Below are positions 18,052 to 46,140 of a DNA stretch of 64,000 nt, in pieces (within the stretch, counting starts at the first letter, position 1; each line of letters begins with the position of its first letter). The notes under the pieces were generated by a model. That model worked only from the letters and a program-made list of their open reading frames with translations. It made no database searches and was not told where the DNA came from. The stretch lies in NCBI GenBank assembly GCA_964016885.1, contig OZ024740.1:174654001-174718000 (forward strand), read 5' to 3'. A program made the position numbers and the translations under genes. The stretch comes from Eledone cirrhosa (Eukaryota).

Positions 18052-18132
18052 ATAAACAAATATCTATCTGTTGAAACGCCAGGAGCTCGACGGCTGAGCT
18101 CCTAGCGTTTCAACAGCTAGATATTTGTTTAT
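18052..18132. repeat. Hairpin, ~37 bp arms with a 7 nt loop
   Basis: ataaacaaatatctatctgttgaaacgccaggagctc / gagctcctagcgtttcaacagctagatatttgtttat. Confidence 0.92.
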
Positions 18133-18179
18133 ATATATAAAACTAGCAAATAGTTTATCGCTCTACATGGCTGAATACA

Positions 18180-18348
18180 ATAAATGTAATCTGTGTTTTT
18201 CGAATATTCATAATAATATTCGATTCGTTTGCAATTATGCAAACAGCTTCTTTTTAAGCCATGTCAGTAGAATAACCCAATCATTCTACTGACATGGCTT
18301 AAAAAGAGGCTGTTTTATTATTAATATTCGAAAAACTCAGATTACATT

Positions 18349-18351
<3 letters not shown>
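18180..18351. repeat. Hairpin, ~70 bp arms with a one-sided ~25 nt insertion
   Basis: taaatgtaatctg..cgaatatt and aaacagc..gccatgtcagtagaat pair with attctactgacatggc..gctgttt and aatattcg..cagattacattta. Confidence 0.9.
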
Positions 18352-18547: not shown

Positions 18548-18752
18548 TTATTTCTACTATAGGCACAAGGCCAGCAATTGGGGGAGAATCGATTAAATCA
18601 GCGCCAGTTCATTACTGGTACTTATTTTATCGACCTCGTAAGGATGAAAGGCAAAGCTAACCTCGGCGGGATTTGAACTCAAACCATAAAGGGTCGTAAC
18701 TCTATGCTATAAAGCATGGTGTCCGACGCTCTACTGATTCTGCCAATCCACT
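18548..18752 (-). mobile_element. Family A SINE
   Basis: Reverse complement of the family A consensus. Confidence 0.9.
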
Positions 18753-19312
18753 CACCAGTTAGTAAACGGAATTTATCCTTACCGATCCTGCGTGGTGTAT
18801 TAAATTACATTCATGCGCAGACTGTAAATATTTGTATACCATGGACAATGTGACGGGTTCAAAATGACGCTAGAAATAATTCACATATCAGCTTAACAGT
18901 TAAGAAGTTGCCAATATCATTCAAAAGCTTATTTGTCACTAATATACAGAACATCGAAATGAAAATATGGCTTTACTAGTACTCTACCCGTCCGGTAACT
19001 TTGCATAAGTTATTCTAAAAGTGCTTCATTGAATTATATATATTTTAAACGGAAAAAAATGAAACGAAATTTCATTTCTCACTCTTAGTACGGCTGTTAC
19101 TTAAATATAAGTATGTATACGTACATACATATATGTATACAGACGTACAGTAGTATGTATATATATATACATACATGCACACATATATATATGTACGTAT
19201 GGATTCACCGAACATTTATTATAATGCTCGGTGTGTTTGTAAACAAACATCCCGAATTAAGCCGTAGTGTCTAGCAACCACCGTTGCTCATTTGTTAAAC
19301 GCTGACAAAGGA

Positions 19313-19355
19313 ACGCTGTACTAGTTTCAACCTTATTAGCTATCGTCAGCAACGT
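19313..19355 (-). ncRNA. Minimal type I hammerhead ribozyme motif
   Basis: Minus strand acgttg-CTGACGA-tagctaataaggtt-GAAA-ctag-TA-cagcgt: 6 bp stem I and palindromic ACTAGT stem III; one G-G mismatch in stem II. Confidence 0.75.
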
Positions 19356-19853
19356 ATACCTTCCTGCCAGATGATTGAACGTCTGAAAGTATATACTTTC
19401 CTTATGCATATTAACGGCTGAGCAACCTAATTTGCATATCGAGTGAGTTAATCGGCCAGGGCACCGAAAACGATAAACGGAAAAAATGAAACGAAATTTC
19501 ATTTCTCACTCTTAGTACGGCTGTTACTTCGGGATGTTTGTTTACAAACACACCGAGCATTATAATAAATGTTCGGTGAATCCATACGTACATATATATA
19601 TATGTGTGCATGTATGTATATATACATACTACTGTACGTCTGTATACATATATGTATGTACGTATACATACTTATATTTAAGTAACAGTTGTACTAAGAG
19701 TGAGAAATGAAATTTCGTTTCATTTTTTCCGTTTATCGTTTTCGGTGCCCCGGCCGATTAACTCACTCGATATGCAAATTAGGTTGCTCAGCCGTTAATA
19801 TGCATAAGGAAAGTATATACTTCCAGACGTTCAATCATCTGGCAGGAAGGTAT

Positions 19854-19896
19854 ACGTTGCTGATGATAGCTAATAAGCTTAAAACTAGTACAGCGT
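19854..19896 (+). ncRNA. Minimal type I hammerhead ribozyme motif (G12A variant, likely inactive)
   Basis: acgttg-CTGATGA-tagc taataa gctt-AAAA-ctag-TA-cagcgt; inverted copy of 19313-19355. Confidence 0.6.
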
Positions 19897-20139
19897 TCCT
19901 TTGTCAGTGTTGAACAAATGAGCAACGGTGGTTGCTAGACACTGTACGGCTTAATTCGGGATGTTTGCTTACAAACACACCGAGCATTATAATAAATGTT
20001 CGGTGAATCCATACGTACATATATATATATGTGTGCATGTATGTATATATTTATACATACTACTGTACGTCTGTATACATATATGTATGTACGTATACAT
20101 ACTTATATATATATTTTAGCTATATATATATTTTACAAT

Positions 20140-20338
20140 ATTTCACAGGGACAGCAATTTGGGGGAGAGGGAAAAATCAAATAAATCGACCCAGTGCGTG
20201 ACTGGTACTTTATTTTATCGACCCTGTAAGGATGAAAGGCAAAGTTAACCTCGGCGGATTTGAACTCAGAACGTAAATGGCCATAACTCTATGCTGCAAA
20301 GCATGGGATCTGACGCTCTACCGATATTGCCAAACCAC
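20140..20338 (-). mobile_element. Family A SINE (long variant)
   Basis: Reverse complement of the consensus. Confidence 0.9.
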
Positions 20339-20439
20339 CATAATAATAAGGAGCAGGAACGAAGCATCAATATAGCATCATTTATTCACGTGTATTCACT
20401 TGTGACGTGCGTTTCGCGATCGATAAACTCAAAGAATAA

Positions 20440-20895
20440 TTAGTATCAATCGGGCTTAACTCTGGAATCGATAGCTCATTAGATTTAAAGGAATCCATAA
20501 GTTTGATGAGCTATCGATTCCAGAGTCGGGTCCGAGCGATATCGATCTTACATTGATACTGATCTTAACTTTCTAACACCTTCTTTAGACACCTTGCTGA
20601 TCCTAGCAAGGCCGTTTTCTGTAATGATCCCGTCCTGATGGTAATCCCTAGCTTCTCAACCCACGCACCCAACCTTTTACTAACTGCTCCCAGTGCACCA
20701 ACCACAATCGGTACCAATTCTGTGTGTCTGATTTTCCAGTTTCCTAATTTCTTTCTTCAGTTCTTGGTATTTCTCAACTTTCTCACCTTCCTTCTCATTC
20801 ACCCTGTGGTCCCACGGTAAAGTACTATCAACAATACTTGCTTTGTTATTCTTTTCTACGACAACAATGTCAGGCATCCTAGCCACGATAAAATG
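20440..20895 (-). mobile_element. RLE-type non-LTR (R4/Dong/NeSL-like) 3' fragment with 3' UTR hairpin
   Basis: ARMPDIVVVEK..IVD..PWDHRVNEKEGEKVEKYQELKKEI, then (frameshifted) LVPIVVGALGAV..LQKTALLGSAR; hairpin ctctggaatcgatagctcat/atgagctatcgattccagag at ~20460-20525. Confidence 0.8.
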
Positions 20896-20921
20896 GGAAA
20901 GAAATATAAAACGGGAAACAG

Positions 20922-20966
<45 letters not shown>

Positions 20967-21204
20967 TAATAATGAATTTGAAGACTAAAATCCAAAGAGG
21001 GCTCGATAAGGATAAATATATATCAAATATATAAGAACCGTAGAGCAAATATTTATTAAAATAACAGATTAAAGTTTAAGCAAAGAATCGCTGCTTTCAC
21101 TCTTAACGGAATCTTCTGAAACTAAAAAAGTTAACCTGTGAACGCAGAAGTAAATATTTCAAAAAACGTTGCAACCGGAGGAAGACAGGAAGACGATACT
21201 TTGG

Positions 21205-21626
21205 TTCATGGAAACGTTCCCTGGCAAAGAATGGAAAAAAACGAAGATAATACGTCATAATTTGGACCAGTGAAAACAATTACTCGCAAAGACAAAACCA
21301 CGTTTATGGTATAAATGAAGTCGTAGACTAATATCCTATTAGGTGATTCATGGAGACGTTCTTTGGCAATGAACGGAAAAAACGAATATAATACGTCATT
21401 ATTTGGATCGGTGAAAACAATAGCACGCAAAGAGAAAACCACGTTTATGGTATAAAAGAAGTCGTAGACTAACATTCTATTAGGTAGTTCATGGAGACGT
21501 TCTCTGGCAACGAACGGAAAAAATGAAGATAATACGTCATTATGTGGAGCAGTGAGAACAAATGCACGCAAAGACAAAACCACGTAAATGGTATAACTGA
21601 AGTCGTAGACTAAAATTCTAACTAGG
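21205..21626. repeat. Tandem repeat, ~141-142 bp unit x3
   Basis: Units start ttcatgga at 21205, 21347 and 21488. Confidence 0.92.
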
Positions 21627-24610: not shown

Positions 24611-24934
24611 TACTTTCATGTATACATCGCTATTTCAGAGCACTGATCCTAATACCCAATATACATATATATTAGAACGAATCCTGAGTACATCCAGAAC
24701 AATAAGTTATGCTTGGGGTCTTGAAGACATTTTTGTTCATTCGTTTAGATTGTTCGTCTCAACTTTAACCGCAATATTCTGCCAGGCTCACTATTGAACT
24801 GAAGACAATCTAAATGACGTATTCATAAAAAGATCAGTTCCATGTGGCAGATTAACCATTGGGTGGGATTGATAACATTGTTTATTATATTCCTTTGTGC
24901 GAAGAAGGGAGCGATATGCCATCGTGTATATTCA

Positions 24935-25180
24935 GAGTACTCAAATTATACGGCCATATAAAAAGATCAACTCGTGGTGTGAGTAGGTTATGCCTGGAAG
25001 GAAGGTTGGCTGGTAAGGGAAGTAGAGGCCGGCAGCCAAAACGATGGCTTGACAATGTCAACATATGGACTGGACTTGATCTTTGTTCTTTGAACTCTGC
25101 TGCTGGTGATCGAACTTTGTGGAAAGAGATATCACATGTTTATGCGCAGTCTGCAACTGGCGGAGTTTAGCGTCACAAGA
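24935..25180 (+). mobile_element. RTE-type LINE 3' fragment
   Basis: LKLYGHIKR..LEGRLAGKGSRGRQPKRWLDNV..AAGDRTLWK is a typical RTE C-terminus. Confidence 0.75.
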
Positions 25181-45766: not shown

Positions 45767-46140
45767 AGGCACATGGCTTAATGGTTAGAGCATTGGGCTT
45801 GCAATCGAAAGGTTGTGAGTTCAATTCTCAGACCGGGTGATGTGTTGTTTCCTTGAGCAAGACACTTTATTTCACATTGCTCCAGTTCACTCAGCTGTAG
45901 AAATGAGATGATGGGGACTGGGGTCCCTATCATTTCACTGCAAAGTGGTTGTGGAGGTGCCATGGCAAAAAAGCACCCAGCCCACACTGTAAGGTGGACG
46001 TGTTGTCACCACGGAAAAAAGCACCCAGCACTCACTGTAAATGAGGTTGGTGTTAGGAAGGGCATCCAGCTGTATAAATCAAGCCAGAATCAGTTCCCGT
46101 CCCACCCTTGCAAGCAGGGAAAAGAGGACGTAAAATGAAA
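45767..46140 (+). mobile_element. tRNA-derived SINE family B, full length
   Basis: A-box tggcttaatggttagag, B-box gagttcaattc, ccttgagcaagacactt..ctcagctgtagaaatg, aggaagggcatccagc. The tail matches the 3' end of RTE subfamily 1. Confidence 0.9.

What the first reader, a model, noticed from the sequence alone, without database searches (positions are those of the whole stretch)
19048..20108. 1.06 kb nested fold-back (A-B-C-A-B'-A'-C'-B') carrying two opposed minimal hammerhead ribozymes
Seen: three segments are duplicated in direct and inverted order at near-identity. Segment C holds acgttg-CUGAYGA-uagc uaauaa gcuu-GAAA-cuag-UA-cagcgu. Each copy has a different single defect (a stem II G-G mismatch in one, G12A in the other), so the consensus is an intact ribozyme. 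Known: minimal type I hammerheads with a palindromic stem III, which cleave as dimers, mark Penelope-like element pLTRs, and these elements form inverted and tandem structures. Inference: this is a recent, ORF-less, ribozyme-delimited retroelement insertion made by repeated template switching. The B-C-A unit (~430 bp) looks circularly permuted (A both precedes B and follows C), as expected from a tandem or circular RNA template such as a retrozyme.
Basis: partly seen in the sequence, partly recalled or inferred. Interest (0 to 1): 0.75.

Follow-up and report, generated by a model that had tools for sequence, protein, structure and literature searches.

The report
Two-armed Penelope-type retrozyme insertion
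This 1.06-kb fold-back is one damaged copy of a 430-base, protein-free repeat with over ten thousand genomic copies and a predicted self-cutting RNA motif, likely pasted by a Penelope-type jumping-gene enzyme that copied one RNA, probably a circle, from two fixed start points into both sides of a DNA cut.

Summary
Segment order, both hammerhead motifs and both defects are as described. The structure is simpler than 'nested'. It is two head-to-head arms of a 431-bp tandem unit with one inversion junction (2-nt microhomology) and a 12-bp target duplication. The genome holds 10,573 exact intact hammerhead cores. Arms end at two fixed sites about 60 nt apart in (TA)n, and 44 of 45 fully defined inverted insertions have one end of each kind. 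This is the published Penelope-like (PLE) 'tail' signature. Ends do not map to the ribozyme cut site (1 of 102), so 'ribozyme-delimited' fails. Both arms come from one source. A very young homologous 469-bp family has insertions up to 7.8 kb whose units carry one haplotype across both arms. This favours, but does not prove, rolling-circle copying. This copy's ribozymes are predicted inactive. No driver ORF or RNA data were found. Verdict: new member of a known kind (animal non-LTR retrozyme, non-autonomous PLE). The scan noted such elements before on other DNA, including a 430-base repeat in this genome.

The parts
19035..19046 (.). Left copy of a 12-bp target-site duplication (TATATATATTTT), low complexity
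   Evidence: 10-13-nt duplications with non-TA letters also at L005, L019, L025
19047..19102 (-).
19103..19529 (-). Left arm: one full unit; with the tail, 1.13 units
19313..19355 (-). Minimal type I hammerhead motif, stem II damaged (C>G at 19331); predicted cut after 19319
19528..19529 (.). Head-to-head inversion junction, 2-nt microhomology (TT); the junction 27-mer is unique in the genome
19528..20105 (+). Right arm: unit positions 276-431 then 1-about 428; ends at 3' end type 2 (no tail)
19854..19896 (+). Minimal type I hammerhead motif with G12A (19881); predicted cut after 19890
20005..20105 (+). Degenerate TA/TG/CA segment of the unit (also at about 19103-19206 and 19580-19679); folds as a long hairpin in the unit RNA
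20106..20117 (.). Right copy of the target-site duplication

Best explanation
The locus is one insertion of an abundant, ORF-less 431-bp tandem repeat with a predicted hammerhead ribozyme, likely copied in trans by a Penelope-like RT-endonuclease that primed both cut target strands on the same RNA, probably a monomer circle. Shown: copy number, two fixed 3' ends in (TA)n, one end of each kind per inverted insertion, shared source of the two arms, target duplication, no pile-up of ends at the cut site. Inferred: (1) tandem copies are transcribed, the palindromic stem III lets two motifs cleave as a dimer, and monomers are ligated to circles. (2) A PLE enzyme makes a staggered cut about 10-13 bp apart in TA-rich DNA. 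(3) One strand primes at the tail site and the other about 60 nt upstream, each running a variable distance round the template. (4) The two cDNAs are joined at short microhomologies. This copy is predicted inert: both motifs are mutated, and a read-through RNA would bury them in a roughly 480-bp duplex.
For: Copies: 10,573 exact 31-nt cores, reversed control 0. Ends: 2,567 tail ends and 2,485 no-tail ends followed by TA. Of 82 pattern-picked insertions 37 are head-to-head; 27 of 28 with both ends defined are tail/no-tail and none is tail/tail; 17 of 17 in similarity-picked loci. 15 of 15 head-to-head end pairs within 3 kb on the first 100 Mb of C1 are mixed (14 distinct). Same source: the arms share rare variants at 0.265 per 100 nt, against 0.021 for same-subfamily pairs from other loci (15 of 45 against 90 of 2,440 pairs). 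Structure: one stem I pair is U.G in 108, A-U in 30 and G.U in 15 copies; 156 of 162 paired against 94 in shuffles (only 2-3 events). Unit RNA z -5.86. The sister family is 72.5% identical in aligned columns, with matching hairpins. It has arms up to 4.85 kb, 15 of 15 defined second ends are no-tail, and 17 of 20 loci are uniform for one of six haplotypes across both arms. Literature: PLE protein cuts and extends both strands and starts at two internal sites that bound the tail (PMC11167929); optional tail at one inverted pLTR (PMC3846280, PMC8557442); circles proposed as PLE templates (PMC4209133).
Against: No driver was found. No sequence link to the unit in the 30 best GIY-YIG loci, 20 extended PLE loci or about 50 Hydra-like loci beyond incidental neighbouring insertions; only 150 of 10,597 GIY-YIG candidates were scored. 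Cleavage and circles are untested. The family has U.U at the base of stem II, and minimal PLE hammerheads cut poorly in vitro (PMC4209133). In the anole PLE, ribozyme mutants insert normally and unprocessed RNA is the template (PMC11167929). 2 of 45 inverted and 3 of 38 tandem pairs mix subfamilies, and this locus's arms differ by a 2-nt indel common in the family; a single monomer circle alone does not give that. Long genomic arrays exist that could supply linear multimers. Uniform sister arrays could also come from uniform donors, conversion or assembly polishing, and those loci were picked for near-identity.
Confidence: 0.6

Rival explanations
1. Same PLE-driven two-site priming, but the template is a linear, uncleaved multimeric transcript from tandem donors; the hammerhead is a weak, protein-assisted or vestigial passenger.
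For: Arrays of at least 45 and at least 120 unit pieces exist. Arms run through the cut site without stopping. Some arrays mix subfamilies (L120). Ribozyme cleavage is dispensable in vitro for the anole PLE (PMC11167929).
Against: Sister-family arms of 10 or more units carry one haplotype, sometimes private to that insertion (L290, 11 of 11 units). Old donor arrays of this family differ by 20-30 changes between neighbours. The stem I pair is kept through double changes.
Confidence: 0.27
2. The inverted arm arises by fold-back self-priming (first cDNA or an antisense template), or by repeated template switching.
For: Self-priming was proposed for head-to-head PLE structures (PMC3846280). The arms share variants. 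An 8-nt inverted homology lies next to this junction.
Against: The 5' ends of the two arms are spread over the unit and mostly far apart. The 'inverted' arm is often the longer one. Both outer ends sit at fixed sites in TA with a target duplication.
Confidence: 0.08
3. DNA-level palindrome (repair or recombination among abundant repeats) or assembly artefact.
For: Two-unit periodic arrays show that DNA-level amplification acts on this family (L113, L185). No listed read contig spanned the central junction (inconclusive).
Against: The arms differ by about 4%; there is a target duplication; the same end rule holds in dozens of loci; a single-copy-depth contig runs from the left flank about 30 nt into the tail in 3 of 3 runs of one sample (just under the tool's bridging threshold).
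Confidence: 0.05

Closest known systems
Animal non-LTR retrozymes (Cervera and de la Pena 2020, PMC7229834, passages read; Li et al. 2026, bioRxiv 10.64898/2026.07.22.740005, part 1 of 5 plus passages, supplements closed)
   Same: ORF-less tandem units of a few hundred bases with one type I hammerhead each, low GC, target duplications longer than 4 bp, proposed PLE origin.
   Different: Minimal, U.U-closed motif with an effectively dimer-only stem III; unit of 431 bp; frequent head-to-head two-armed insertions with a tail rule ('inverted' occurs 0 times in the main text of PMC7229834 and only in a reference of the preprint); circles not shown here.
Insertion architecture of EN+ Penelope-like elements (PMC8557442 passages and supplement part 2 of 59 plus look-ups; PMC3846280 passages; PMC11167929 parts 1-2 of 4)
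   Same: Partial tandems, inverted 5'-truncated copy, optional tail at one end, two internal RT start sites, (TA)n targets.
   Different: No ORF; tail about 60 nt rather than 30-40; the published start sites in the anole PLE were not strand-specific, whereas here one site of each kind is used per insertion.
Minimal and Hydra-clade PLE hammerheads (PMC4209133 parts 1-2 of 4; PMC8557442 File S2)
   Same: Small palindromic stem III, opposite-strand pairs 100-700 bp apart, and a U on each side of stem II, which is already tabulated for many Hydra-clade elements.
   Different: Lacks G10.1-C11.1, which PMC4209133 calls highly conserved; no sequence match to the octopus Hydra or Naiad entries by three motif look-ups.

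Membership tests
Animal non-LTR retrozyme | Tandem repeats of about 150-450 bp, each with a type I hammerhead | tested here: met
   431-bp period; dimers up to arrays of at least 120 pieces, many with intact cores
Animal non-LTR retrozyme | No protein ORF | tested here: met
   The three sense frames of the unit are broken by stops; no PLE ORF in the window
Animal non-LTR retrozyme | Dispersed insertions with target duplications longer than 4 bp | tested here: met
   12 bp here; 10-13 nt at L005, L019, L025; unreadable in most of the 28 loci because of pure TA
Animal non-LTR retrozyme | Self-cleavage of the ribozyme | not testable with these tools
   Core conserved and stem I covaries, but U.U closes stem II and the monomer's best fold is inactive
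Animal non-LTR retrozyme | Expression as linear and circular monomer RNA | tested here: inconclusive
   No RNA holder listed; indirect support from uniform sister arrays
Non-autonomous Penelope-like element | Partial tandem plus inverted 5'-truncated copy, with the tail at one end | tested here: met
   44 of 45
Non-autonomous Penelope-like element | AT-rich or (TA)n target | tested here: met
Non-autonomous Penelope-like element | Homology to the pLTR or 3' end of an autonomous RT+GIY-YIG family | tested here: inconclusive
   None found in a partial sample; similar U-flanked hammerheads and two-end layouts lie downstream of RT+GIY-YIG ORFs
Canonical or minimal hammerhead consensus | G10.1-C11.1 pair | tested here: not met
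   U.U in 170 of 172 copies; the sister family has G-C
Autonomous PLE | RT and GIY-YIG ORF between pLTRs | tested here: not met

The most novel reading that the evidence does not exclude
A PLE RT-endonuclease uses a small ribozyme-made RNA circle as template and primes both cut strands on it, one at each of two fixed sites, making two rolling-circle cDNAs that are joined head to head. That single step would explain PLE tails, inverted copies and partial tandems. The products also seed hammerhead satellites of 50 kb or more. The young 469-bp sister family gives a direct test system.
Probability: 0.5. Interest if true: 0.62.

Novelty: new member of a known kind. Interest (0 to 1): 0.32.

Why it matters
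The locus itself is an ordinary, probably dead copy. The family matters as a large natural data set on an open question: how PLEs make tails and inverted copies, and whether animal retrozyme circles are the template. The one-of-each-end rule and the single-haplotype arrays give sharp predictions for an in vitro assay. Thousands of two-armed copies are also a potential source of long double-stranded RNA in host transcripts (inferred, untested).

Tried and rejected
Rfam at gathering score: no hammerhead. RNA evidence: no RNA holder listed. Read contigs over the central junction: none among those listed, inconclusive. Driver search: apparent ORF links at L003, L061, L069, L102, L107, L117, L130, L153, L155 and L184 were insertions into or beside other PLEs, which have their own hammerheads where their 3' ends were seen. 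L140 and L144 are neighbours in the wrong orientation and were not resolved further. ORFs of 150 aa or more beside unit copies gave no PLE domain in 8 of 8 scanned. No shared sequence upstream of single arms. L1-style twin priming, in which the tail arm stops at the second priming site: 2 of 51, expected 1.9 (some ends in the microsatellite were poorly mapped). Recurrent master junction: rejected, the junction is unique. Junction microhomology is only modestly supported: 30 of 46 anchored, 11 with clean overlap, 7 of those at least 2 nt against 18% at random, and 19 with apparent inserts. snRNA-type promoter: U2 upstream regions match only the microsatellite part. Two-unit periodic arrays as proof of dimer circles: rejected, they look like later DNA amplification. 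U.U stem II as a novelty: already in PMC8557442 File S2. Literature searches for this family found no description; the library lacks most subscription papers and Repbase, and bioRxiv supplements were closed.

Full report
Observation. Read in the ribozyme's sense, the locus is two arms pointing outwards. The left arm (minus strand, 19529 to 19047) is one 431-bp unit plus a 56-nt tail. The right arm (19528-20105) is unit positions 276-431 followed by 1 to about 428. They meet at a 2-nt microhomology that is unique in the genome. A 12-bp duplication flanks the insertion. The + motif has G12A and the - motif a stem II G.G mismatch.

Family. The genome (3.0 Gb; octopus-like by my recall of its repeats and by earlier scan notes, not by a call) gave 2,164 candidates for a 231-bp probe. 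It holds 10,573 exact copies of the intact 31-nt core, control 0. Fifty pattern-picked near-full copies are 95.6% identical to the majority and 92.8% to each other, in several subfamilies. Arrays of at least 45 and at least 120 unit pieces exist; two arrays with two-unit periodicity look like later DNA amplification.

Ribozyme. The family motif has a 6-bp stem I, a 4-bp stem II flanked by U and U, and a palindromic stem III that can pair between two copies (-6.8 kcal/mol). One stem I pair outside the search pattern is U.G, A-U or G.U in 153 copies; 156 of 162 are paired against 94 in shuffles, though this reflects only two or three events. The unit RNA folds well (z -5.86), but the monomer's best fold pairs core bases and is inactive. 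U-flanked stem II motifs also lie downstream of RT+GIY-YIG ORFs with a CX4CxxC linker in this genome ('Neptune-like' is my label from PMC8557442) and are tabulated for Hydra PLEs. Cleavage is untested. At this locus each strand has one mutated motif, and 41 of 43 motif bases would pair with the opposite arm in a read-through RNA.

Ends. 3' ends fall at two sites about 60 nt apart, both followed by TA: 2,567 and 2,485 exact matches. Of 82 pattern-picked insertions, 37 are head-to-head, 43 single-armed and 2 complex. 27 of 28 head-to-head insertions with both ends defined have one end of each kind; so do 17 of 17 among 28 similarity-picked loci. An independent pairing of listed positions gave 15 of 15. 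5' ends are spread over the unit, with 1 of 102 near the predicted cut site. The element is therefore bounded by RT start sites, not by the ribozyme. This fits PMC11167929 (both strands cut and extended; two internal starts that bound the tail) and the optional tail of PMC3846280 and PMC8557442.

Template. Arms of one insertion share rare variants about 12 times more often than same-subfamily controls, but 2 of 45 inverted and 3 of 38 tandem pairs mix subfamilies. While looking for a driver I found a homologous, very young 469-bp family (72.5% identity, score 219 against at most 51 in shuffles). I examined 20 of its loci, two of them duplicates. 15 have both ends defined and all 15 are tail/no-tail; the tail end was selected by the query. 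Insertions reach 7.8 kb, and 17 of 20 carry one of six haplotypes throughout, once with two changes fixed in 11 of 11 units of both arms. Passage through a single unit is what a monomer circle predicts. Uniform donors, conversion or assembly polishing could mimic it, and a few variants are shared by only 2-3 units.

Driver. Not found. Neptune-like, Hydra-like and other PLE families with long ORFs and TA ends are abundant and young, but none sampled shares sequence with the unit. Neighbouring ORFs are explained by a shared (TA)n target.

Comparison and verdict. It works like a non-autonomous PLE and meets the genomic criteria of animal non-LTR retrozymes (PMC7229834; bioRxiv 10.64898/2026.07.22.740005); cleavage and circles remain untested. 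Four searches found no description of this family. Earlier scan notes describe the same kind of element, one a 430-base repeat in this genome; my tail-rule reading was recorded before I saw them. New member of a known kind; interest 0.32, with the two-site rolling-circle mechanism as the part worth testing.

Noticed in passing
L289-L308 (e.g. G000:C1:302135538-302143277, C12:27750864-27756035): Very young 469-bp sister retrozyme family with a G10.1-C11.1 hammerhead and two-armed insertions of up to about 17 near-identical units; variants cluster at unit positions 84-95.
   Followed up: partly
G000:C1:96983000-97034000 and C1:51772000-51791300: Satellite-like arrays of this unit (at least 120 and at least 45 pieces, both running off the fetched DNA); the larger begins at a head-to-head junction.
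   Followed up: partly
L113, L185: Arrays with strict two-unit periodicity (421/423 bp), probably amplified after insertion.
   Followed up: yes
L186:528-615: Miniature two-armed insertion of about 90 bp that keeps both end types and no ribozyme.
   Followed up: no
L127:426-1271, L148:1664-1974: Another tandem hammerhead family with a 310-bp period and U-flanked stem II.
   Followed up: no
L055:2205, L091:1452 and 6431, L110: PLE hammerheads with the U3-A8 core variant downstream of RT+GIY-YIG ORFs.
   Followed up: no
L227, L238, L245 (719-aa frames); L198:2197-6853: Young Hydra-like PLE family with many long open frames; a second Hydra-like family forms a 99%-identical 1.7-kb inverted pair around nested repeats.
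   Followed up: partly
window 18564-18751 and 20144-20338: Two copies of a SINE-like repeat flank the insertion; many more lie in the window (the SINE label is recalled).
   Followed up: no
window 20680-21075 (-) and 24856-25170 (+): Reading frames that resemble C-terminal remnants of non-LTR retrotransposons (by recall).
   Followed up: no
window 21205-21620: 141-bp tandem repeat (2.9 copies) that matches, by eye, the 3' region of the L203-L211 Hydra-like family.
   Followed up: no
window 18052-18351 and 20429-20556: Other short inverted-repeat structures with arms of 33-59 nt.
   Followed up: no
run X3, joint 19325/19759: One contig joins two unit pieces through a short telomere-like insert.
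   Followed up: no
window 45774-45831: Partial tRNA match just above the Rfam cut-off, possibly a SINE head.
   Followed up: no
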